Shown piece after piece: positions 17,271-33,478 of a stretch of DNA of 33,478 bases. Source of the DNA: Nanobdellota archaeon (GTDB lineage Archaea > Nanobdellota > Nanobdellia > Woesearchaeales > GW2011-AR15); the NCBI GenBank assembly GCA_018815145.1, contig JAHIYL010000157.1, positions 1 through 33,478 of the forward strand. Direction: 5' to 3'. Below the pieces are notes generated by a model. It was not told the origin of the DNA, did not search any database, and saw only the letters and a list, made by a program, of their open reading frames with translations. The translations under genes were made by a program, and so were the position numbers. Every line of letters starts with the position of its first letter. The stretch's first letter is position 1.

Positions 17271-18008
17271 CTATATACCTAAGATCACTTCTTTATTTCT
17301 TATTGCCCTTCTCAGACGAGCATAACTTGGAACACCAACAATCTTTGTATTGTCCTTCCCGTCAATGCCAATATATATTGCCGGAAGACTTGTGCCGACA
17401 GCAAGTTTTTCTGAGTCTATCATATCTTTTTGGACAATAATATAGTCTGAAGAATCCATGCATTTATTAAATTTGCTTTTTGCAATGCCAAATCTTTCCG
17501 CAACATTATCTATCTTGTCTGTTTCCAATCCCACTATTGCGTCAATGATGTCAGAGAGGTTTCCTTTGCCGATGCTTTCTTCAATGCACAAGATTGCTGT
17601 CGCATAGACATAGCCATTTTCTTTGCTGTTGTAATCATCATCAGATATGTATGTCTTGTAATAGAGCCTGACTCTTCCTGAATCAATGAATTCATCTCTT
17701 AGCTGCGGAACAATATCTTTTTCAAAATCTTTGCCTGCATCTGAGATAAAATCAGTGAAAATAATGACTGTCACTCTTGCGTCCGGACTGCCAATAAAAT
17801 CTCTTCCCATTATATCAGGATTGGTGGTAAAATAATACTCAAAGAGATAGGATTCATTCTTCTGGTCAACATTTTTTTTTATATATGGCTTTTTTGTAAG
17901 CTCATACATCAATGCGCTGACACAAATAAATAGCACAAACAAAACAAATAAAGTAAAAACAATGATTGTCTTTAGACCTCTATTCTGTATCTTGGCCTTT
18001 TTTTTCAT
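17271..18008 (-). CDS. Membrane-anchored DsbA-like (Thioredoxin_4) protein lacking the CxxC active site
   Basis: It has an N-terminal TM anchor. The DsbA-like layout is GSPDARVTVIIFTDFISDAGKDFEKDIVPQLRDEFIDSGRVRLYYKTY...CIEE...FNKCMDS...GTSLPAIYIG. The position normally holding C-P-x-C reads S-D-A-G. Confidence 0.6.
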   Translation of the reverse strand: MKKKAKIQNRGLKTIIVFTLFVLFVLFICVSALMYELTKKPYIKKNVDQKNESYLFEYYFTTNPDIMGRDFIGSPDARVTVIIFTDFISDAGKDFEKDIVPQLRDEFIDSGRVRLYYKTYISDDDYNSKENGYVYATAILCIEESIGKGNLSDIIDAIVGLETDKIDNVAERFGIAKSKFNKCMDSSDYIIVQKDMIDSEKLAVGTSLPAIYIGIDGKDNTKIVGVPSYARLRRAIRNKEVILGI

Positions 18009-18700
18009 TCGACAGTCTCCATAAGCTCATTTTTGGATACTAACTCTTTTTGGAGAACATTTTCCTGGATAATTACAGCAGGAATATCAGTTATGTCATA
18101 GTAGCTCTTGATAAGCTTTACAATCTGTTCATCTGAATTGAAATCTATGGTAAAAACAATTACCTTTTTTCCTTTTGTTTCCATCTCCTGCTTGAATCCG
18201 TCAAGCTCTTCTCCCTGCTTAATACATGTAGCGCACTCCTTTGAATAAAAATAGAGGACTGGTATCAGGGTCTTATTGCACTTTTTGTAATTATTTTTTG
18301 CCATGACCCAAGCTCTTATCGAAAGTTTTGTATAAGATTCCTTCAGAGCAAGGTATTCTTCACTCACCTTATTGTACCGCTCATATTCTTCAATCCTGTA
18401 TGGGAAGCTCTCCCAGAAATAGCTCAGCCTATCTTCAAGATCATTGTAAGACAATGCTGAGAATTCACATGCTTTTTTTGGTGAAAGACCGCTTGTGAAG
18501 CTTTCCTGCACCTGGATTGTCTCGATTCCTGCTGTCAGGACATCCACATAGTTTTTTATGAAATCTATCTCTTCCTGAGTCTTCTTCTCTATCATTTTAT
18601 TTGCATAAAGACCACTAAGGACTCCGGCCAAATAAAGCAGAATTGACAATATGACTGATATGATAATCAATTTCTTTCGGGATTTGATGATTTTCTTCAT
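18005..18700 (-). CDS. Membrane-anchored thioredoxin-fold protein with a CxxC (CATC) motif
   Basis: It has an N-terminal TM anchor and a helical linker. The Trx core is IPVLYFYSKECATCIKQGEELD...KVIVFTIDFNSD...YDITDIPAVII. It overlaps the downstream DsbA-like gene in an ATGA arrangement. Confidence 0.7.
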   Translation of the reverse strand: MKKIIKSRKKLIIISVILSILLYLAGVLSGLYANKMIEKKTQEEIDFIKNYVDVLTAGIETIQVQESFTSGLSPKKACEFSALSYNDLEDRLSYFWESFPYRIEEYERYNKVSEEYLALKESYTKLSIRAWVMAKNNYKKCNKTLIPVLYFYSKECATCIKQGEELDGFKQEMETKGKKVIVFTIDFNSDEQIVKLIKSYYDITDIPAVIIQENVLQKELVSKNELMETVE

Positions 18701-18832: not shown

Positions 18833-21800
18833 TTGACAAAAAAACTAATTTATATGCTACTAATCATTATTCTCTCTATTGTTACAGCCAGTTTTGCATA
18901 TGCTTCCTTTGATGTTAATCTGCATTCACCTGAAAATGGCATCTATAAGAGCACAAATTCTGTTATGTTCAATTTCTCTGTCATAGGCAATTACTCAAGC
19001 TATAACTGCAGCATATTTACAAACAGGACCGGAGCGTGGATGATCAATCTCACCAATTCTTCTGTATCTAACGACACTTTCAGCTTCTTCGATCTGCAGG
19101 AACTTGATGAAGGTGAATTCTTATGGAACATATTCTGTGAAAATCAGACAGAATCCAATTTCAGCATATCTAACTATTCCCTGAATATTGATACAATCTT
19201 TCCTTCATGGACAGACTATTCTACCTATCCGGCAGACAACCAGAATTACACTCCTGACACAAGTCATGAATTCAACATAACATGGAGCGATATCAATCTG
19301 AGGTATGTCTGGATAGAACATAATTTCACAGGGACTCTTTTAAATTACACATCAGTATCAAATATTTCTGAATCTATTTTTTACTATCAGTATGGTTCTC
19401 TCAAGGCAGGTTCATATCTCTGGCGCATGTTCGCAAACGACACTGCAGGTAATCTTAATTTTTCAGACAGTTTTACCTATTTCATACAAAAAACTGAGTC
19501 ACTCATCAATCTGACAATCAACGAGACAACAACAAATTTTTCTATTAGTGAAGGTAATTATCTCAATATAACAGGGACAAAGCTCTCTGGCGAAGGTGAT
19601 ATCACTCTATACAATAATGGCACAGCAGTCAATTCAGATCCTTCACTAGTATCCAATATATCCTTCTTCTACATCCCAGGCACATTCAATATCACATTAT
19701 TCTACACTGAATCAGAGAATTACACTGAATCATATTATACTTTTTGGGTGACTGTTAATGATACAGCTGCACCATCCTGGTATGATAATCTCACAAGTAT
19801 AGCAAGTGGATTTGCCTATTCTCAACTGCTGCGCCAATTCAATGTATCCTGGAATGATTCAACATTAGACACTGTATGGATTGAACACAATTTCAGTGGC
19901 ACGCTGTCCAATTATTCTGTGACAGGCAATATCAATAACATCATATATTATTATGATTCGCCTACAATCACTCCCGGAGAATATTCTTGGAGCATGTGCG
20001 CAAATGATTCACAGCAGAATCTCAACTGCACACCATATTTCAGCTACTCAGTTATCAAGGCAAATCCCAGCATCAACCTGACCATAAATGGAAATGGAAA
20101 CCTGTCAACCTATGTTGTTGAGAGTGTCAATCTTACAGGTTTTGTCCTTGATGGAGACGACATACTTGAACTGTATGTCGAAGGCATATTGTACAATAAT
20201 GGCTCTGATGCTGTCACAAATATCACTTCCTTTATTACAGAAGGCATAAAAAATATAACTCTGATATACCCTGTTTCTCAAAATTATACAGGGACATCAG
20301 AAACATTATGGGTAGATGTTATTGGGACTTTTTTTACTTCACTTCCGGATATCTTGCCTGCAGCAATAAATAACCAGACAAATATGGTATGCAGTTTTGA
20401 AGAGGATGGAGCTTCAAACAATATCACAACGTGGTATAGGAACAATGTAAGTGACCTAAGAATATATATGCCTTTTGAGACAAATGAAGGAAGTGAGTCA
20501 AACCAGACAATAGACTATTCAGGTTTCGGCAATAATGGTGTTGTTGTCAATGCAACATGGTCTGCATCTTCCGGAAAGATCGGCGGCGGATACACTTTCA
20601 ATGGAACTGATGATTACATAACTGTTGCGCACAGTGATTCATTGAACCTCACTAAACAGTTGACTGTGGAAGCTTGGGTAAAAAGAGAGGGTATAGGAAC
20701 TGAACAGGTGATACTGTCAAAGATGAGTAGTGTTTTCGGAACAGATATGTTCTCACTCTCATTTTATTCTAACAATAAGGTTAGGTTGACAATAGGGGCA
20801 GGTAGTTCTTGCGAAATTGATTCAATTTCAGCAATAACTGACTCCAATTGGTACCATATTGCAGCAACATATGATGGAGATACAAAACTTGCCAAAATAT
20901 ATATCAATGGAACTCTTGATAAGAATGATACATCATGTCTAATATCAAGTTTCATATGGACCTCAGATCCACTGGGAATTGGCGCACTTCATGACGGGAG
21001 CAATAAATTCAACGGCAGTTTGGATGAAATGAGATTGTATAACAAAACACTTTCTGATGCACAGATAAAAGAACATTCATTATTGAACTATCATCATCTG
21101 AATGCAAATGAGACTAACAGCAATGAATACTGGAAGTGCAGTGTTCTCCTTGTAAATGATACAAAGTTAGGTAGACATTATAATTCAACAGCCAAATACA
21201 TCAAAGAATACGATGCAGTCAACCTCACTGTCAATGGAACAGACGGAAATATCGGAATTGAAAGAGATTCAAGCATCAATATCACCGGAGTGCTCATATC
21301 AGGAGAAGGAGAACTTGCAATCTATATTGATGGTAATCTGATAAACAATGGAAGCCTACATATTTCAAACATCACATTGTTCAATGAGACAGGAAGCCAT
21401 AATATCACACTCATAAGTTCAGGCTCTGACACATATCTGCCGGCAAGCGAGACACATTGGGTGACTGTCACAGATACAGTGAATCCTGTGATCTCATCAG
21501 TTGCCAATATCTCTGTCACCTGGTCAACATACAATATCATCTGGAATACAGATGAACCTGCAAATTCCATTGTCTTCTATGGTAATTCATCCGGCAATTA
21601 CACATCCAGTGCATCAAATCTAACAGAATACACATTGTCACACAACATCACCATATCTAATCTTGAAGATAACAGGACATATTATTATATTGTCAATTCA
21701 ACAGATCCATCCGGAAACTCAAACCAATCTGAGGAATATAATATCACAATAGAATATCAGGATGAAGTGGCACCAATATCTGGAAATGAGTTAGTATATC

Positions 21801-24800
21801 CGGAAACTGGAAATATATATAACACTTCTATTGAATATTTTTTCAATGCCAGTTTCACAGATGATGTAAATGTGACTAGAGTATGGATAGAGCACAATTT
21901 TACTAAAGGCGCTATGCAGAATTCATCTGTATCTAACCAAGGAAATGAATATTATTACAATACTACTCAGCTTGCAGCAGGTCACTATGGCTGGAGGATG
22001 TATGCTAATGACTCATCCGGCAACATTGGTTCCACAGATTCATTCACATATGTTGTTGAACAGGCAACTCCAAGCATCAATCTGACATTGAACAGGACTG
22101 CCGGAAATAATTCCCTGTCTGAAAATTCAGTTGTCAACCTTACAGCAATATTATTAGCCGGTGAGACAAATATAATTCTTTATAACAACAACAGCATCAT
22201 TGCATCCGGTTCGACTATTGTGTCCGCAAACACTGAATATGATAAACCTGGACTATATAATATCTCTGCTGCATATCCTGCAACAGAGAATTACAGTGCG
22301 AGCATGACAACTTATTGGCTTACTGTAACTGATGTGCCTGAAGCACCGACAATCCTTAATCTGACAGATGATGTCACAAAGACTTTCATCAAAAAGGATG
22401 AAACCATCACATTCTCAGCATACTGGCTTGATGATGATACAGGAGATTCAGTGAAACTTCTCATATCAAGGAATCCTTATTTTGAAGGCTGTGATTATGA
22501 TAACACAAGTTCATGCGTAACTTATTCTACTGCGGACACAACCAGCCCGGCCACTGCAACACTAGTAAATACCCTTAATGAGAATCTGACATGGTATGGA
22601 CAGATATGTGACAGCTACAATAATTGCACAAAAGTACATACTTACAATGACAATGATGATTCTGAAGTGAACATCAATTATACTGCAGGATGGGTTAATG
22701 TCAATTATGCATTTGATGGAAATTTGGGCGCCCCGCAGGCTTACACAACTTCAACCAGTTTCACAGAAATTCTTTTCAACTATAGTGTTCCAAATAATAT
22801 CACTCAAGGCTGGATGAATTACAAAATCGAGATTATAACTGCTCTTTCCAACGGAACTCTTTTTTGTAATAATGGAACAGAATGGATTAATCTGAAAAGT
22901 TGGCAGGATACATCTTTAACAGAAGAAAGCAATACCACAATAGATCCTACTTGTTATGATGGAAAATCTTATATTGATTTCAATCTGAGTGCAAAAGTAA
23001 CTGGACTAGGTTATTTTAGAGTATATGAACTGCAGCCTGTCTGGAACAAGACCGAAGTATACACTGAAAGTTTTATTGCTGATTCAACTCTTCCTGCAAC
23101 TATAATATTTGGTCCAACAGATAATGAAACAATCAACCTATCCGCAGTTGATTTCAATTACAGTGTCAATGATTCATTTATTGACCGTGCCTGGTATCAA
23201 TTGGATTACAGTACCACAAAAAACTTCCTGGATCCTGCATTGAACACAACAAGCATAAGTTTTGATCATCCTGGACAGCATATAATAATCCTGTATGCAA
23301 ATGACTCAGCAGGAAATATCAACAGCACATCAACAACATTCTATTCAAATGCTGCAATCAATCTCACAAAATGGAAAGAAGACATGCAAAATTCAAATCC
23401 TGAAATATCCAATATACTTATATCAAACTCAACTGGTCAGGCTGATGAACTTGCGGATCCAGACCAGGATTTCACAATCCTGCTTCAACTGACTGATGTC
23501 AATGCAACTATTGTCAACTTCTCCGGGAGCATCGCAAGATGGAACTATGTATTCAATATCACTGATGCAAGTTCAGATTTTGAAAGCCAGGTTGACAGCT
23601 CAATTGCCACCCTGCCTGTTGATTTTGCTTATCTGCAGAATTTCTCATGGTTTTATAGCTCAGAAAATACTTATCACGGTATAGTGAGGCTTCCAAAAAA
23701 CATATCCCAATATGACAGCATCTATTATTGCCCAGACCATGATCTGAGCAACTGCTACATTGTCACTTCAGTTTGCACAGGCCTATCAGACAGTGATTCA
23801 ACACCCTGTTATAATAATTCAATAGATTATATTGATGTTTTTGTTCCGCATTTCAGTGGAGTGTTTGGTGACAATGATACTGTGGCACCCACCATATCAA
23901 TATCTTCGCCTGTTGCTTCAGAAGTCCTCAGCAATGGATATGATAACTATCTTACCCTCACTGTAAATGAGAATTCATTTTGCTACTACAAATTCAGCAC
24001 AGATCCATCATATACAATCTTTTCAGCAAGTGCAGGAACATCATTCCAAAAGCGATTCAATAGTGAGAATGATGCCTGGGTGGATGCATCTCACACTTTC
24101 AACATACTTTGCAATGACACATATGGGAACAGCAACACAGACAGTGTCTCATTCACTGTCAATGATACAACAGCACCAACCATAACTTCTTCATCGTTCT
24201 ATGAAGAAAGTGCCAGTGCGGAAATTGATATTACCACAAATGAACCCACACAATGCAGATATAATCAGTCCAATGTAGCATTCTCACTCATGACCGCATA
24301 TGTACAGAATGCATCCTATATTTTTGTGCACAGCGATACTGTCGATACAGAAGGTATGCACTATATCAAATGCCAGGACATGGGAGGCAATGAAGTGGCT
24401 ACATCAATGGATATAGATTTCACCTCCACAACAAACCTTCGCAACGATGATGATGAGGGAAATACCGGCGGAGCAGGAGGAGACAGTGAAACCGCCGGTC
24501 CTTCAAGCATAACCCGGCTATGGCAGTCAATGCCGACAGGAACCCAGACCATGACCATATCAAGCGAAGAATTAATAATAACCAAATTGACTTTCTCTGT
24601 CCTTGAAGACATAACAAAGACAGTCTCAATAACAGTCAGTCAGGTAATAAGCCTCTCTTCAAGCATGCCTGAACTTGACAATCTCCTGTACAAGTATGCA
24701 AGAATAACAACTGGCAATCTTCCTGACAGCATAATTGAAAATGTAAAAATCCGGTTCAAAGTAAAGGACAGCTGGATAAAGGAAAACAATATTGACATAT

Positions 24801-25465
24801 CATCAATAAAACTGAACAGGTACACCGGAAAATGGGATCTTCTTCCTACTTCTTTGACTGATACTGATTCAAAATATTTCTACTTTGAAGCAACATCACC
24901 TGGTTTTTCATATTTTGGGGTAAATGCCAAAGCAAAACCAACTTCACCTGCTTCAACACCTGCTGCACAGAATGACACAAATCCAGTTCCTGTAATGGAC
25001 TCTGGTCCGCAGATAACCGGAAGCACAGTCACAAATCAGACAAGCATAGATAAAAAAGACCTTATTGAAAAAATAATTGAAAATCCTCTTAATTATCTTT
25101 GGCCTGTGTTTACACTATTGATTATATTCATATTAGTCATCTTCCTTATTTACCAGAATAGGTTTTCTGTAGTCACAGATTCAGATCTTGTTGGATTGAG
25201 AAAATATGTCCAGACCTGTGAAAGTGAAGGTATTGAATTTGAAAAGATAAAAGATACCCTTGTTAATGCAGGATGGAAAGAATCATTGGTGGAACTCGTA
25301 CTCCATGACGTGCATATGCCACATGATGAAATTGAAAAACTTGAATTTTACATAAGCTATGCCACAAATAAAGGAATCAAGCCTGAAGAAATCAAAGAAA
25401 ATCTTTTAGGAGTAGGGTGGCAGCATGATATTGTAGATGAACTCATAAAAAAAATCAAACCATGA
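18833..25465 (+). CDS. Giant (2210 aa) type-I membrane surface protein: signal peptide, repeated Ig-like modules, LamG lectin-like domain, FN3-like domain, PGF-pre-PGF domain, TM helix and repeat-containing cytoplasmic tail
   Basis: A TTG start with GGGGG 6 nt upstream gives MTKKLIYMLLIIILSIVTASFAYA. Three WIEHNF[TS] modules have their Trp codons at 19310, 19877 and 21884. Four INLTxN...WVTV modules are present. The Laminin_G_3-like domain spans 20513-21070 (NGVVVNATW..GGGYTFNGTDDYITV..LTVEAWVK..NWYHIAATYDG..IYINGTL..FNGSLDEMRLYNKTLS). The PGF-pre-PGF domain spans 24497-24931 (..VKIRFKVKDSWIKENNIDISSIKLNRYTGKWDLLPTS...YFYFEATSPGFSYFGV). A Pro/Thr/Ser linker follows, then a TM helix at about 25094-25153. 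Confidence 0.9.
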   Translation: MTKKLIYMLLIIILSIVTASFAYASFDVNLHSPENGIYKSTNSVMFNFSVIGNYSSYNCSIFTNRTGAWMINLTNSSVSNDTFSFFDLQELDEGEFLWNIFCENQTESNFSISNYSLNIDTIFPSWTDYSTYPADNQNYTPDTSHEFNITWSDINLRYVWIEHNFTGTLLNYTSVSNISESIFYYQYGSLKAGSYLWRMFANDTAGNLNFSDSFTYFIQKTESLINLTINETTTNFSISEGNYLNITGTKLSGEGDITLYNNGTAVNSDPSLVSNISFFYIPGTFNITLFYTESENYTESYYTFWVTVNDTAAPSWYDNLTSIASGFAYSQLLRQFNVSWNDSTLDTVWIEHNFSGTLSNYSVTGNINNIIYYYDSPTITPGEYSWSMCANDSQQNLNCTPYFSYSVIKANPSINLTINGNGNLSTYVVESVNLTGFVLDGDDILELYVEGILYNNGSDAVTNITSFITEGIKNITLIYPVSQNYTGTSETLWVDVIGTFFTSLPDILPAAINNQTNMVCSFEEDGASNNITTWYRNNVSDLRIYMPFETNEGSESNQTIDYSGFGNNGVVVNATWSASSGKIGGGYTFNGTDDYITVAHSDSLNLTKQLTVEAWVKREGIGTEQVILSKMSSVFGTDMFSLSFYSNNKVRLTIGAGSSCEIDSISAITDSNWYHIAATYDGDTKLAKIYINGTLDKNDTSCLISSFIWTSDPLGIGALHDGSNKFNGSLDEMRLYNKTLSDAQIKEHSLLNYHHLNANETNSNEYWKCSVLLVNDTKLGRHYNSTAKYIKEYDAVNLTVNGTDGNIGIERDSSINITGVLISGEGELAIYIDGNLINNGSLHISNITLFNETGSHNITLISSGSDTYLPASETHWVTVTDTVNPVISSVANISVTWSTYNIIWNTDEPANSIVFYGNSSGNYTSSASNLTEYTLSHNITISNLEDNRTYYYIVNSTDPSGNSNQSEEYNITIEYQDEVAPISGNELVYPETGNIYNTSIEYFFNASFTDDVNVTRVWIEHNFTKGAMQNSSVSNQGNEYYYNTTQLAAGHYGWRMYANDSSGNIGSTDSFTYVVEQATPSINLTLNRTAGNNSLSENSVVNLTAILLAGETNIILYNNNSIIASGSTIVSANTEYDKPGLYNISAAYPATENYSASMTTYWLTVTDVPEAPTILNLTDDVTKTFIKKDETITFSAYWLDDDTGDSVKLLISRNPYFEGCDYDNTSSCVTYSTADTTSPATATLVNTLNENLTWYGQICDSYNNCTKVHTYNDNDDSEVNINYTAGWVNVNYAFDGNLGAPQAYTTSTSFTEILFNYSVPNNITQGWMNYKIEIITALSNGTLFCNNGTEWINLKSWQDTSLTEESNTTIDPTCYDGKSYIDFNLSAKVTGLGYFRVYELQPVWNKTEVYTESFIADSTLPATIIFGPTDNETINLSAVDFNYSVNDSFIDRAWYQLDYSTTKNFLDPALNTTSISFDHPGQHIIILYANDSAGNINSTSTTFYSNAAINLTKWKEDMQNSNPEISNILISNSTGQADELADPDQDFTILLQLTDVNATIVNFSGSIARWNYVFNITDASSDFESQVDSSIATLPVDFAYLQNFSWFYSSENTYHGIVRLPKNISQYDSIYYCPDHDLSNCYIVTSVCTGLSDSDSTPCYNNSIDYIDVFVPHFSGVFGDNDTVAPTISISSPVASEVLSNGYDNYLTLTVNENSFCYYKFSTDPSYTIFSASAGTSFQKRFNSENDAWVDASHTFNILCNDTYGNSNTDSVSFTVNDTTAPTITSSSFYEESASAEIDITTNEPTQCRYNQSNVAFSLMTAYVQNASYIFVHSDTVDTEGMHYIKCQDMGGNEVATSMDIDFTSTTNLRNDDDEGNTGGAGGDSETAGPSSITRLWQSMPTGTQTMTISSEELIITKLTFSVLEDITKTVSITVSQVISLSSSMPELDNLLYKYARITTGNLPDSIIENVKIRFKVKDSWIKENNIDISSIKLNRYTGKWDLLPTSLTDTDSKYFYFEATSPGFSYFGVNAKAKPTSPASTPAAQNDTNPVPVMDSGPQITGSTVTNQTSIDKKDLIEKIIENPLNYLWPVFTLLIIFILVIFLIYQNRFSVVTDSDLVGLRKYVQTCESEGIEFEKIKDTLVNAGWKESLVELVLHDVHMPHDEIEKLEFYISYATNKGIKPEEIKENLLGVGWQHDIVDELIKKIKP
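25196..25312 (+). repeat. Cytoplasmic-tail repeat 1 (39 aa) of the giant protein
   Basis: LRKYVQTCESEGIEFEKIKDTLVNAGWKESLVELVLHDV aligns without gaps to repeat 2, with 11/39 identical residues (L..Y.......GI..E.IK..L...GW....V). Confidence 0.7.
25340..25456 (+). repeat. Cytoplasmic-tail repeat 2 (39 aa) of the giant protein
   Basis: The sequence is LEFYISYATNKGIKPEEIKENLLGVGWQHDIVDELIKKI. See repeat 1 for the alignment. Confidence 0.7.
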
Positions 25466-32130: not shown

Positions 32131-32272
32131 ATTCTGTTCTTAAGATTTATCAGTTCATTTAAATTAATTCCTGTAATACGTAGTCCCTGAAAAGTAGTCT
32201 AAAATAATAATATTTATATATAGGTTGTTGTTACTTGGTAGTAATTTATCGCATTATTCAAACTAAAAACAG

Positions 32273-33478
32273 ATGGAGAAAGGGAAAATGAATGCAAAAA
32301 ACATGTATCTTCTATTTTTGATTATCAGTTCAATTCTATTCATAAGCATAAGCAGTTCAGTCAATGCTGTCGGCACCTGCACAGGAAGCTGTGAAAGCGG
32401 ATCTCAATGCAATGTCTATGGAAACCCTAATCCCGGAAAAGTGTGGAGCTGCAAGAACACTGGTTCGTATTATGAATGCATCCAGACCAGTGCAGACAAT
32501 TGCGATTACCTTGACTGCAGCCTTGGGTGGAGAGACTGCGGCTGCGATGTATCCGGCTGTGAACAGAGATGTGAATCACAGTATGCAAATCAGCCTGGAT
32601 ATCATACAAGGACTGAATTCTGTGATGATTGCGGCCAGAAATTCACTTGTGATTGTTATATACAAGAAGTGCCTAATCTCTTCTGTGGAGATGGGGCAAT
32701 AAATCAATACTGGGAAAAATGCGACCTGAACGGAGACAACGGAAGAGACAAGAATAATGACGGCGTATTTGGTCCGGGCGAATGCAGAACCGACTGTACC
32801 TACTGCGGGGATGCTGATACACAATTCTATACTGAAGCCTGTGACTATAAAGACACTATATACAAGAATTGTGCAACCTTTCCTAATGATCCAAATTGCT
32901 GCAGAGACAATTCTTATGGAAGAAATATGTGCACCTACTGTGGCGACGGTAAAGTACAGACCGGTCTTGAAGAGTGCGAATACAAATCTCATTGCACTGC
33001 AATCACCGGAAAAATTCTCCTGTCATGCAATTCTGATTGCGTTTGTGTATATGAAGATGCTTTTGGATGCATAGATGGATATAAAAGAGATACTACCGGA
33101 ATCGGTCTTCCTCTTTGGGAAATAACAACAGAATATGTGAATGATCCAAGCATCCGGTACATTGCATATACTGATTCATCAGGATATTACAAATTTCCTC
33201 AGTTGATAATCGGCACGTGGAAAGTGACTGAGACAATGAAATCAGGATGGGCTGTTGCCAGCGGGTACTCAATAAGCTACAATAAATATGTTTCTGTGGG
33301 TTCTACTTGTGCTGTTGCAAATTTTAAGAATAAGCAAGTGCCGACTCTCGGATGTGTTGAAGGCATCAAAAGAGATGATAACCATATAGGGCTTTCGGGA
33401 TGGACAATACATGCTAAAAAAGTCGGACAGCCTGATTCAAGCGGAAAGACTGCTGTCACCGGAAGTGACGGCAGCTAT
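32273..33478 (+). CDS. Secreted Cys-rich CGDG-repeat protein followed by Cna-B/SdrD-B-like repeats; 3'-truncated by the window edge; absent from the ORF track
   Basis: I translated 402 codons from 32273 to 33478 codon by codon and found no stop. An alternative start is the ATG at 32288, with GGAG 8 nt upstream. The signal peptide is MNAKNMYLLFLIISSILFISISSSVNA. I count 32 Cys between about residues 36 and 265. Three CGD-type repeats are present (FCGDGAINQYWEKCD, YCGDADTQFYTEACD, YCGDGKVQTGLEECE). Two units 95 aa apart follow (GCIDGYKRDTTGIGLPLWEI...SSGYYKF..GTWKVTE..GW and GCVEGIKRDDNHIGLSGWTI...GSDGSY). Confidence 0.85.
   Translation, partial: MEKGKMNAKNMYLLFLIISSILFISISSSVNAVGTCTGSCESGSQCNVYGNPNPGKVWSCKNTGSYYECIQTSADNCDYLDCSLGWRDCGCDVSGCEQRCESQYANQPGYHTRTEFCDDCGQKFTCDCYIQEVPNLFCGDGAINQYWEKCDLNGDNGRDKNNDGVFGPGECRTDCTYCGDADTQFYTEACDYKDTIYKNCATFPNDPNCCRDNSYGRNMCTYCGDGKVQTGLEECEYKSHCTAITGKILLSCNSDCVCVYEDAFGCIDGYKRDTTGIGLPLWEITTEYVNDPSIRYIAYTDSSGYYKFPQLIIGTWKVTETMKSGWAVASGYSISYNKYVSVGSTCAVANFKNKQVPTLGCVEGIKRDDNHIGLSGWTIHAKKVGQPDSSGKTAVTGSDGSY

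What the first reader, a model, noticed from the sequence alone, without database searches (positions are those of the whole stretch)
32273..33478. Real 402-codon gene missing from the ORF track: secreted Cys-rich CGDG-repeat / Cna-B-like protein
Seen in sequence: the frame from the ATG at 32273 (or 32288) to the last base has no stop, which I verified codon by codon. The track instead lists five shorter ORFs in other frames or on the other strand: 32364-32702, 32427-32609, 32576-32992, 32757-33074 and 33277-33459.

The product has:
- a classical signal peptide
- 32 Cys in about 230 residues, an even number
- three [FY]CGD[GA]...E.C[DE] repeats reminiscent of the 'Myxococcus cysteine-rich repeat' class
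- at least two 95-aa G-C-[IV]-[DE]-G-[YI]-K-R-D...G[LW]...[ST]G.Y units resembling Cna-B/SdrD-B stalk domains

Inference: it is a second disulfide-rich adhesin or stalk protein continuing beyond the window. This repeat class is mostly described in bacteria, so horizontal acquisition is possible.
Basis: partly seen in the sequence, partly recalled or inferred. Interest (0 to 1): 0.6.

Follow-up and report, generated by a model that had tools for sequence, protein, structure and literature searches.

The report
Truncated archaeal cysteine-rich stalked surface protein
The open frame is the start of a real gene for a large exported, disulfide-rich, stalk-like surface protein of a tiny Woesearchaeota-type archaeon; the protein type is ordinary, but its tip is an undescribed 100-residue cysteine-rich domain otherwise found mainly on surface proteins of ultra-small CPR bacteria.

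Summary
Frame 32273-33478 (+) is open for 402 codons (chance about 2e-12). It was absent from the ORF track only because it runs off the contig end. It continues on contig C223, the only contig-end pair in the assembly sharing a 33-mer. The minimum model is 1133 aa: signal peptide, a new 15-Cys domain (aa 33-136), three CGDG repeats, at least 4 SdrD-B/CnaB-type stalk domains, a Cys-rich region, Asp-rich Ca-type motifs and a CARDB-like end. Unitig depth in two samples (3-4x) suggests about two more repeat units are missing. Stalk domains pass Pfam cut-offs only with the continuation. The CGDG repeats fail DUF4215/TIGR02232 thresholds; repeat 1 matches a 41-aa archaeal variant. The C-terminal module is conserved in the window's archaeal family and GC3 is native, so the gene as a whole is not a recent import. 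The N-terminal domain matches no Pfam, NCBIfam, PDB or BFVD entry (AF2 pLDDT 92.5). It occurs in 2 of 301 genomes of the phylum and mostly in Dojkabacteria-like bacteria. Its conserved Cys count is odd. The minimum model has no N-glycosylation sequons. Most likely it is an adhesin-like surface protein; function is inferred, not shown.

The parts
32213..32220 (+). TTTATATA, an archaeal TATA-box-like element 60 nt upstream of ATG 32273. A GGAG at 32275-32278 lies 9 nt before the alternative ATG at 32288.
   Evidence: Pattern positions computed. Promoter function is inferred, not tested.
32273..33478 (+). 5' part (402 codons) of the gene. It is cut by the contig end and continues on contig C223 (locus L004, 7227 down to 4999, minus strand) to a stop. 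Minimum model 1133 aa.
32273..32368 (+). Sec-type signal peptide, aa 1-32 (MEKGKMNAKNMYLLFLIISSILFISISSSVNA | VG). No twin arginine.
   Evidence: Sequence inspection of the translation. No predictor was run.
32369..32680 (+). N-terminal Cys-rich domain ('N-dom'), aa 33-136. It has 15 conserved Cys and a predicted alpha/beta fold with no match in Pfam, NCBIfam, PDB or BFVD.
32681..32806 (+). CGDG repeat 1, aa 137-178. It is a full-length member of a 41-residue archaeal variant of the DUF4215-type repeat.
   Evidence: 63.9 bits, E 8e-22, against an HMM built from P0052/P0054/P0060 repeats. The best of 2000 shuffles scored 4.9.
32801..33064 (+). CGDG repeats 2 and 3 (aa 177-221 and 222-264). Only the YCGDG..E.C head is shared with canonical DUF4215 repeats; the tails are idiosyncratic.
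   Evidence: Domain scores of 9.8 and 12.0 bits to positions 1-14 of a canonical-repeat HMM. BLASTP to the relatives' DUF4215 regions gives E 3.7e-5 to 3e-3.
33065..33349 (+). Stalk domain A1, aa 265-359. SdrD-B/CnaB-type prealbumin fold with a conserved Cys pair (Cys266, Cys346).
33350..33478 (+). First 43 residues of stalk domain B1 (aa 360-402). The rest is on contig C223.
33223..33478 (.). Collapsed repeat segment. Logan unitigs here have 3-4x the single-copy depth in two independent metagenome runs, and a 115-nt piece exists in two variants that differ by 3 bases.
33446..33478 (+). 33-nt exact overlap with the end of contig C223. The same 33-mer recurs 567 nt further inside C223.

Best explanation
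The frame is the 5' part of one gene of a Woesearchaeota-type DPANN archaeon. The gene encodes a Sec-exported, disulfide-rich, modular surface protein with no N-glycosylation sequons in the minimum model.

Domain order (shown):
- signal peptide;
- a novel 15-Cys alpha/beta head domain;
- three CGDG repeats;
- a stalk of alternating A/B SdrD-B/CnaB-type beta-sandwich domains, each carrying a conserved Cys pair (at least 4 domains; depth suggests more);
- a 35-Cys region;
- Asp-rich thrombospondin-type-3/MopE-like motifs;
- a C-terminal CARDB-like Ig domain.

How it probably works (inferred): the conserved C-terminal module holds the protein non-covalently on the archaeon's own envelope. There is no TM helix or archaeosortase signal, and two membrane-anchored CARDB-type proteins are encoded immediately downstream. 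The Cys-stapled, probably Ca-stiffened stalk projects the variable, unglycosylated head outwards. The head (N-dom plus CGDG repeats) then binds a ligand on another cell or surface, so the protein acts as an adhesin for an organism that probably lives attached to a host.
For: Real gene and its extent.

Continuation: the only contig-end pair with a shared 33-mer among 305 contigs, in frame to a stop.

Domains:
- Pfam above cut-off for CarboxypepD_reg, SdrD_B and SpaA on the joined model.
- Collinear relatives carry DUF4215 (47.4 bits), Cu-binding_MopE (28.0) and CARDB (25.0) above cut-off.
- AF2 gives a confident beta-sandwich for the last ~100 aa (pLDDT 80-91), with Ig-like Foldseek hits.
- A Cys pair is conserved in 19 of 19 stalk domains from 7 proteins.

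Lineage:
- The best hit is Ca. Woesearchaeota.
- Same-family genome G093 carries the Woesearchaeota-labelled P0051 contig.
- The C-terminal module is found at E 1e-57 to 1e-69 in 7 same-family genomes, often as 3 paralogues.

Head-on-stalk logic: N-dom sits at the N-terminal, distal end of otherwise unrelated proteins that end in an LPxTA-type anchor, a PEF-CTERM-like signal or DUF11 domains. One such gene lies next to a sortase gene.

Naked surface: 0 sequons against 9.6 +/- 2.8 expected, with 0 of 2000 shuffles as low.

Disulfide handling: a Thioredoxin_4 (DsbA-type) protein is encoded in the same window.

Background: cell-surface proteins of Nanoarchaeota are the fastest-diversifying genes and are implicated in host binding (PMC6142677).
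Against: - No binding, localisation or expression data exist, and no RNA run holds the gene.
- No anchor was found, so the protein could be released rather than surface-held.
- The CARDB, TSP_3 and MopE matches of this protein itself are below cut-off (13.9 and 12.9 bits; no MopE hit at E<=0.1). They rest on orthologues and on the conserved motif VNPGMDEIPYNGQDDDC.
- The C49-C223 join is a graph adjacency, not a read-spanned join, and copy number is unresolved.
- The middle of the C-terminal module folds poorly (mean pLDDT 62).
- The host-dependent lifestyle is assumed from the lineage, not shown for this organism.
Confidence: 0.6

Rival explanations
1. It is a released cell-envelope-targeting factor rather than an adhesin held on the cell. 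The N-terminal domain would be a targeting or binding module for foreign cell walls, and the protein would be secreted to act on neighbouring or host cells.
For: No TM helix, PGF/PEF-CTERM or sortase motif at the C-terminus (sequence). In two bacterial proteins N-dom is fused to Peptidase_M23 peptidoglycan endopeptidase domains (66.2 and 42.2 bits).
Against: No catalytic domain is detected anywhere in the 1133-aa model. Most N-dom carriers are themselves anchored surface proteins. The conserved C-terminal module looks like a base rather than an effector.
Confidence: 0.15
2. It is a structural envelope or sheath component. In this reading it would be a rigid building block of the cell surface, or of a filament, with no specific ligand.
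For: Repetitive Ig-like stalk domains, tandem amplification, neighbouring CARDB/FixG_C Ig-like membrane proteins, and an HTH plus S_layer_C protein on C223.
Against: The N-terminal parts of family members are highly variable (beta-propeller-like repeats, different Cys repeats, N-dom) while the C-terminus is constant. That pattern is typical of ligand-binding heads, not lattice proteins. N-dom is present in only 2 of 9 same-family genomes.
Confidence: 0.12
3. It is an extracellular metal-binding or redox protein. Many of the 79 Cys and the MopE-like motif would bind metal (for example Cu), or the unpaired Cys of N-dom would be a reactive thiol.
For: Orthologue P0009 passes the Cu-binding_MopE cut-off (28.0 against 27). 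N-dom has an odd number (15) of conserved Cys, and in 8 proteins these are the only Cys present, so at least one is not in an intramolecular disulfide.
Against: The PF11617 motif is only 30 residues long and this protein does not hit it at E<=0.1. Cys in the stalk and repeats occur in conserved pairs, as expected for disulfides. Co-loss of Cys40 and Cys82 in three homologues indicates a disulfide pair.
Confidence: 0.08
4. It is a non-functional remnant or an assembly chimera. The open frame would be a pseudogene fragment or an artefact of mis-joined repeats.
For: The last 256 nt are a collapsed repeat. C223's first ~140 nt are not represented at 95% or higher likeness in the Logan contigs of either run.
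Against: The unique part (32273-33222) lies on single-copy contigs with no differences in two independent samples. The frame is open, conserved and domain-rich. Relatives with the same architecture exist in several genomes.
Confidence: 0.05

Closest known systems
SdrD / Cna-type MSCRAMM adhesins of Gram-positive bacteria (B-repeat stalk: Pfam SdrD_B PF17210, SpaA/prealbumin-like PF17802, transthyretin-like clan)
   Same: Tandem ~95-residue beta-sandwich stalk domains that project an N-terminal ligand-binding region. Pfam scores are above cut-off on the full model.
   Different: The host is archaeal and there is no LPXTG or sortase anchoring. Each stalk domain has a conserved first-strand/last-strand Cys pair (19 of 19), roughly where CnaB domains are expected to carry a Lys-Asn isopeptide (placement recalled, not checked on a structure). 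The head is unrelated to the MSCRAMM A region.
DUF4215 / 'Myxococcus cysteine-rich repeat' proteins (PF13948, TIGR02232, IPR011936)
   Same: The 'YCGDG..E.C' repeat head. Close relatives (P0005, P0051, P0008) pass PF13948. These are extracellular Cys-rich repeats of unknown function (bioRxiv 10.1101/2023.03.06.531300).
   Different: This protein's repeats do not reach either model at E<=1. Repeat 1 belongs to a 41-residue variant (..CDLxGxNGxDxNxDGxxGxGECRxDCTYC) seen in Woesearchaeota/Nanoarchaeota proteins. Repeats 2 and 3 have unique tails.
Unnamed Woesearchaeota surface-protein family (P0003, hypothetical protein JXB41_00595; P0005, P0006, P0008, P0009, P0010)
   Same: Collinear from the stalk to the C-terminus, at 53% identity (P0003) and 33-36% (others). 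All share the Cys-rich region, the DxDxDG Asp-rich motifs, NPGxxExxxNGxDDDC and a CARDB-like end finishing in Y.R..YRE.
   Different: N-terminal heads differ (beta-propeller-like repeats, more DUF4215 repeats). Among the six relatives named here, only P0010 also carries N-dom.
Giant surface proteins of DPANN archaea, such as the 2210-aa LamG protein in the same window
   Same: Large exported modular Ig-fold proteins thought to mediate contact with hosts.
   Different: This protein has 0 sequons, 79 Cys and no anchor.

Membership tests
SdrD_B / SpaA prealbumin-like stalk domains (PF17210, PF17802; transthyretin-like clan) | Score at or above Pfam's gathering cut-off | tested here: met
   Joined model: SdrD_B 64.8 bits (cut-off 29.7), SpaA 64.5 (23.1), CarboxypepD_reg 78.8 (32.3), three stretches each. 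The window fragment alone scores 14.7, 14.1 and 20.4 bits, all below cut-off.
CnaB-type domains | Intramolecular Lys-Asn isopeptide with a catalytic Asp/Glu | not testable with these tools
   A Lys (GYKRD) and an Asn (NFKNK) are present, but the geometry could not be examined. Instead a Cys pair is conserved in 19 of 19 domains, which suggests a disulfide staple.
DUF4215 (PF13948) / TIGR02232 Myxococcus cysteine-rich repeat | Match to the curated repeat model | tested here: not met
   No PF13948 hit at E<=1 and no NCBIfam family at E<=1. An HMM built here from 14 canonical repeats of relatives matches only profile positions 1-14 (9.8 and 12.0 bits).
41-residue CGDG repeat variant of Woesearchaeota/Nanoarchaeota proteins (no curated model) | Full-length match to an HMM of the variant repeats of P0052, P0054 and P0060 | tested here: met
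   Repeat 1 (aa 137-178) scores 63.9 bits, E 8e-22, over profile positions 1-41. The best of 2000 shuffles scored 4.9. Repeats 2 and 3 match the head only.
CARDB (PF07705) | Pfam gathering cut-off; Ig-like beta-sandwich fold | tested here: inconclusive
   This protein scores 13.9 bits, below the 22.7 cut-off. Orthologue P0009 scores 25.0 and passes. AF2 gives a 7-strand sandwich at pLDDT 80-91, and Foldseek finds Ig/Fn3-like domains at E about 5e-5.
Cu-binding_MopE 'putative metal-binding motif' (PF11617) and TSP type-3 repeat (PF02412) | Pfam gathering cut-off | tested here: not met
   TSP_3 scores 12.9 bits, below 25. There is no PF11617 hit at E<=0.1. Orthologue P0009 scores 28.0 against 27 for PF11617. 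The motifs DTDHDGICDDDDNCP and VNPGMDEIPYNGQDDDC are visible, and their Asp, Gly and Cys columns are invariant in 11 sequences.
Archaeosortase or sortase substrates (PGF-CTERM, PEF-CTERM, LPXTG) | C-terminal sorting motif plus TM helix plus basic tail | tested here: not met
   The model ends ...NNDEFSRTIIREFWLNK with no hydrophobic segment. Other N-dom carriers do have PEF-like (P0051, P0097) or LPxTA-like signals.
C-type lysozyme (weak sequence hint for N-dom) | Significant sequence or fold similarity | tested here: not met
   The profile against PDB gives a best E of 0.31 at 14.9 bits. Lysozyme is absent from the 50 Foldseek matches listed, and the best TM-score is 0.23.

The most novel reading that the evidence does not exclude
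The first 100 mature residues are a previously undescribed disulfide-rich fold that serves as the target-recognition tip of surface proteins in two unrelated groups of ultra-small episymbionts. These are Dojkabacteria-type CPR bacteria, where it sits on sortase-linked or M23-peptidase proteins, and a few Woesearchaeota. The domain would have been passed between the two domains of life. Its invariant odd Cys (15, or 13 after paired loss) would provide a reactive thiol for covalent or redox-dependent attachment, possibly together with the invariant Gln in C-x-Q.
Probability: 0.25. Interest if true: 0.75.

Novelty: new variant of a known kind. Interest (0 to 1): 0.42.

Why it matters
How DPANN archaea and CPR bacteria recognise and hold on to their hosts is largely unknown, and their surface proteins are mostly unannotated. 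This gene gives a concrete modular example: a constant base, a Cys-stapled stalk and an exchangeable head. It also isolates a compact 100-residue head domain that can be expressed and tested. That domain is confidently modelled, has no counterpart in Pfam, NCBIfam, PDB or BFVD, and is shared across the bacteria/archaea divide. Its odd, invariant Cys count and the complete avoidance of glycosylation sequons, next to a sequon-saturated neighbour, are testable clues to how the tip works. For annotation practice, the case shows that ORF lists which drop contig-end ORFs, and assemblers that break at tandem Ig-domain repeats, hide exactly this class of gene.

Tried and rejected
1. Recent HGT of the whole gene is rejected. 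GC3 is 0.388, within the neighbours' 0.23-0.43, and the higher GC comes from codon position 2. The C-terminal module is conserved in same-family genomes.
2. Alternative frames being the real genes is rejected. The five ORFs give no Pfam hit apart from one chance-level match at 15.1 bits, E 0.017.
3. N-dom being lysozyme-like is rejected. The profile E is 0.31 and there is no fold support.
4. I tested whether the bacterial N-dom proteins that end in '...PPxTD[ILK]' are truncated at TGA in code-25 organisms. This is rejected, because P0076 stops at TAA.
5. The word-indexed search restricted to N-dom found only 3 proteins. The exhaustive HMMER search was needed.
6. The genome-contig scan with single-protein peptide patterns found one full-length relative. 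The other hits were Asp-rich motif matches in Saprospiraceae, Myxococcota and similar bacteria, which show only that the TSP3/MopE-like motif is widespread.
7. AF2 of the 488-aa C-terminal module reached only pLDDT 62, and only the last Ig domain is usable.
8. I tried to place the far end of the 2x-depth 650-nt Logan contig on the window, which would prove a loop.
9. No RNA run holds the gene, and earlier scan notes have nothing like N-dom.
10. Model coordinates are not exposed, so disulfide connectivity could not be read from the AF2 model.
Full report
**1. The observation**

Translating 32273-33478 (+) gives 402 residues with no stop. The window is the whole of contig C49 of a 305-contig, 2.34-Mb, 89%-complete assembly. 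The lister omits ORFs that run off the source by default, and that alone explains why the gene was 'missing from the ORF track'. At the local composition a 402-codon open frame has a chance of about 2e-12. The five alternative-frame ORFs have no HMM support; the best is a 15-bit match at E 0.017. The motif positions are as stated. There are 34 Cys in total and 31 in aa 33-264.

**2. The rest of the gene**

- The reverse complement of contig C223 (7227 nt) begins with exactly the last 33 nt of the window. Among all 610 contig ends of the assembly, this is the only pair that shares a terminal 33-mer.
- Joined, the frame runs on to a stop at C223:4999, giving 1133 aa.
- The 33-mer recurs 567 nt (189 aa) further on, so the assembly broke inside a tandem repeat. 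The two A-B units of the model are 74% identical in DNA and nearly identical in their last 250 nt.
- Logan contigs of two independent runs, a biofilm metagenome and a groundwater metagenome, both contain the gene.
- In the biofilm run single-copy flanks have word depth 12.7-13.5. Window 33223-33478 is covered by unitigs at 40.9, 22.3+23.3 (two variants differing by 3 bases), 41.7 and 52. The groundwater run shows the same 3-4x ratio.
- A 650-nt contig at 2x depth leaves the shared 54-mer and then diverges from C223's version.
- The tally fits an array with about two more repeat units than the bin contains: three copies of the high-depth segment, four of the 54-mer, and exits at 2x + 1x + 1x. 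If the 650-nt contig re-enters the segment, the extra period would be 852 nt, which is in frame and equals 284 aa.
- I could not place the contig's far end. So 1133 aa is a minimum model, and the link is a graph adjacency rather than a read-spanned join.

**3. Anatomy (residues of the minimum model)**

- *aa 1-32, signal peptide.* Sec-type with a VNA|VG cleavage-like site, judged by eye.
- *aa 33-136, the Cys-rich domain 'N-dom'.* See section 5.
- *aa 137-264, three CGDG repeats with 16 Cys.*
  - Pfam PF13948 and NCBIfam give nothing at E<=1.
  - Relatives carry PF13948 above cut-off (P0005, 47.4 bits).
  - BLASTP aligns these repeats to the relatives' DUF4215 regions at E 3.7e-5 to 3e-3.
  - An HMM of 14 canonical repeats matches only the YCGDG..E.C head of repeats 2 and 3 (9.8 and 12 bits).
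  - An HMM of a 41-residue variant from Woesearchaeota/Nanoarchaeota proteins matches repeat 1 end to end at 63.9 bits.
- *aa 265-645, four alternating A/B stalk domains of about 95 aa.* On the joined model CarboxypepD_reg scores 78.8, SdrD_B 64.8 and SpaA 64.5 bits, all above cut-off. The window fragment alone is sub-threshold. Every one of 19 such domains in seven family members keeps a Cys at position 2 and another at about position 80. This is probably a first-to-last-strand disulfide, roughly where CnaB domains are expected to have their isopeptide (that placement is recalled, not checked on a structure).
- *aa 646 to about 960, a region with 35 Cys.* It is predicted as beta-hairpins at moderate confidence.
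- *About aa 935-1020, Asp-rich DxDxDG motifs and VNPGMDEIPYNGQDDDC.* These are invariant in 11 aligned sequences. This protein is below cut-off for TSP_3, while orthologue P0009 passes Cu-binding_MopE and CARDB.
- *aa 1035-1133, an Ig-like beta-sandwich.* pLDDT is 80-91 and Foldseek finds Fn3/Ig domains at E about 5e-5.
- *No anchor.* There is no TM helix or sorting signal at the end.
- *Downstream on C223, same strand.* Two exported CARDB/FixG_C-type proteins with C-terminal TM segments come first. Beyond them, on the opposite strand, lies an HTH plus S_layer_C protein.

**4. Whose gene, and is it imported?**

- The closest relative, P0003, is from a Ca. Woesearchaeota archaeon. It is 53% identical over aa 438-1133.
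- Contig lengths tie handles to names. Same-family genome G093 matches the Woesearchaeota-labelled contig of P0051. G100 matches a MAG whose title says 'Methanosarcinales', which is probably a mislabel.
- The family-specific C-terminal module was found at E 1e-57 to 1e-69 in 7 same-family genomes, often as three paralogues. In the rest of 301 genomes of the phylum it appears only as short motif matches.
- GC3 is 0.388, inside the neighbours' range. The raised GC is in codon position 2.
- So the gene as a whole is native to this archaeal family. Bacterial hits in Saprospiraceae and Myxococcota cover only the Asp-rich motif.

**5. The N-terminal domain**

- An exhaustive HMMER search of 1.84 billion representatives with aa 33-264 found 46 proteins at E<=1e-3. 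About 30 of them match only aa 34-132, at 40-53% identity.
- Twenty aligned sequences give the consensus CSGxCxSGxECNxxGNPxxGKMWSC...CYLDCxxGWxPCGCDxxxCxxxC...PG..T.T..C..CGQxFTCxC.
- None of the 20 has a Pfam match on this region. NCBIfam is silent. The best PDB profile hit is lysozyme C at E 0.31.
- AlphaFold2 with this shallow alignment gives mean pLDDT 92.5 and pTM 0.80, with all five models at 88.8 or higher. The fold is alpha/beta: helix, four strands, helix, then a long hairpin.
- Foldseek finds nothing in PDB (best E 0.4, TM 0.23 or less) or in BFVD (best E 0.55, TM 0.30 or less). AlphaFold DB was not available, so 'new fold' holds only relative to these libraries.
- Carriers place the domain at the N-terminal, distal end of diverse exported proteins. 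It is followed by PT-rich linkers and LPxTA-type anchors, by DUF11/DUF7507 domains, by DUF4215 repeats and a PEF-CTERM-like signal (Woesearchaeota P0051, P0097), or it lies inside M23 peptidase proteins.
- One carrier gene sits beside a sortase gene and SecA. That SecA is 65-70% identical to Ca. Dojkabacteria / candidate division WS6 SecA. The longest-contig lengths of three other carriers equal those of further Dojkabacteria-like SecA hits.
- In the window's own phylum the domain occurs in only 2 of 301 genomes.
- In a domain tree the archaeal copies P0001, P0051 and P0097 group together at 96/93 support with one LPxTA-anchored protein, inside a poorly resolved and mostly bacterial radiation.
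- The likeliest history is inter-domain exchange of this head module, probably from CPR bacteria to Woesearchaeota. The direction is not proven.

**6. Two unexplained features**

- *Odd Cys count.* N-dom has 15 conserved Cys: 12 in 20 of 20 sequences and the others in 19, 17 and 16 of 20. In eight proteins these are the only Cys of the whole polypeptide, so at least one cannot be in an intramolecular disulfide. The three sequences that lack Cys40 also lack Cys82, which implies a 40-82 pair, and they still keep an odd 13. The unpaired Cys could be a free or reactive thiol, an intermolecular bridge or a metal ligand. An invariant Gln two residues after invariant Cys120 is noted, but nothing more can be said.
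- *No sequons.* The 1133-aa model has no N-x-S/T sequon, against 9.6 +/- 2.8 expected; 0 of 2000 shuffles were as low. Most relatives are depleted too, although P0008 is enriched. The neighbouring 2210-aa surface protein has 118 against 48 expected.

**7. Interpretation**

Shown:
- a real, conserved, exported, modular, Cys-rich protein with an SdrD-B/CnaB-type stalk and an Ig-like C-terminal domain;
- a constant C-terminal module and variable N-terminal heads within one archaeal family;
- an unannotated head domain shared with CPR bacteria.

Inferred:
- The C-terminal module binds the producer's envelope, perhaps through the adjacent membrane-anchored CARDB proteins.
- The stalk is stiffened by disulfides and Ca.
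- The unglycosylated head binds a ligand on a host or other surface.

Two background points support this reading. Surface proteins are the fastest-diversifying genes in Nanoarchaeota populations and are implicated in host contact (PMC6142677). A Thioredoxin_4 (DsbA-type) protein in the same window supports extracytoplasmic disulfide handling.

The rivals are a released envelope-targeting factor, a structural envelope component, a metal or redox protein, and an artefact. They are weighed in their own sections.

**8. Verdict**

As a protein type it is an ordinary adhesin-like surface protein, and its absence from the track is a tool artefact. What goes beyond the ordinary is the undescribed, confidently modelled 15-Cys head domain with a CPR/DPANN distribution, the Cys-stapled variant of the CnaB-type stalk, and the total absence of sequons.

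Noticed in passing
window 32273-33478 plus L004 7227-4999 (minus strand): The 1133-aa model has no N-x-S/T sequon (9.6 +/- 2.8 expected; 0 of 2000 shuffles as low). The 2210-aa surface protein at 18833-25465 has 118 against 48 expected. Two exported proteins on one contig therefore follow opposite glycosylation strategies.
   Followed up: partly
window 32369-32680 and homologues P0053, P0055, P0059, P0068, P0069, P0075, P0089, P0098: The conserved Cys count of the N-terminal domain is odd (15). In eight proteins these are the only Cys present, so one Cys must be unpaired. Cys40 and Cys82 are lost together in three homologues.
   Followed up: partly
L004 (contig C223) 3427-4785 and 997-3375, minus strand: Directly downstream of the gene, on the same strand, lie two exported CARDB/FixG_C/NPCBM_assoc Ig-like proteins with C-terminal TM segments (452 aa and 792 aa). 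They are possible membrane-anchored partners.
   Followed up: partly
L004 31-960, plus strand: A 309-aa protein combines an ArsR/HTH_20 winged-helix domain with an S_layer_C 'outer domain' match (25.9 bits, cut-off 23.9). This is an odd pairing of a DNA-binding domain with an S-layer-type domain.
   Followed up: no
L005 = G100:C2 (CAZEKF010000002.1): A MAG titled 'uncultured Methanosarcinales archaeon' is placed in the same family as the window's Woesearchaeota-type genome and carries three paralogues of this protein family. The title is probably a mislabel.
   Followed up: no
stalk B-type domains: window 33350-33478; P0003 aa 371, P0005 aa 782, P0006 aa 694, P0009 aa 313: The first ~30 residues of the B-type stalk domain (GCV[ED]GIKRDDNH[VI]GLxGWxIHAKKxGQPDSS) are almost identical in P0005, P0006 and P0009, which are otherwise about 32-36% identical to this protein, and in most of P0003. 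This suggests a conserved binding or Ca site.
   Followed up: no
L030 4001-5419 and homologues P0057, P0073, P0077, P0079, P0083: Dojkabacteria-like N-dom/DUF11 proteins end exactly in ...P-P-x-T-D-[ILKR] at a true TAA stop, next to a sortase gene. This may be an unusual C-terminal sorting or processing motif without a TM segment.
   Followed up: partly
window 17271-18008, minus strand: A Thioredoxin_4 (DsbA-type) protein (40.4 bits, cut-off 23.2) is encoded in the same contig as the Cys-rich protein. The adjacent ORF 18005-18700 has only weak AhpC/TSA and DUF373 matches.
   Followed up: partly
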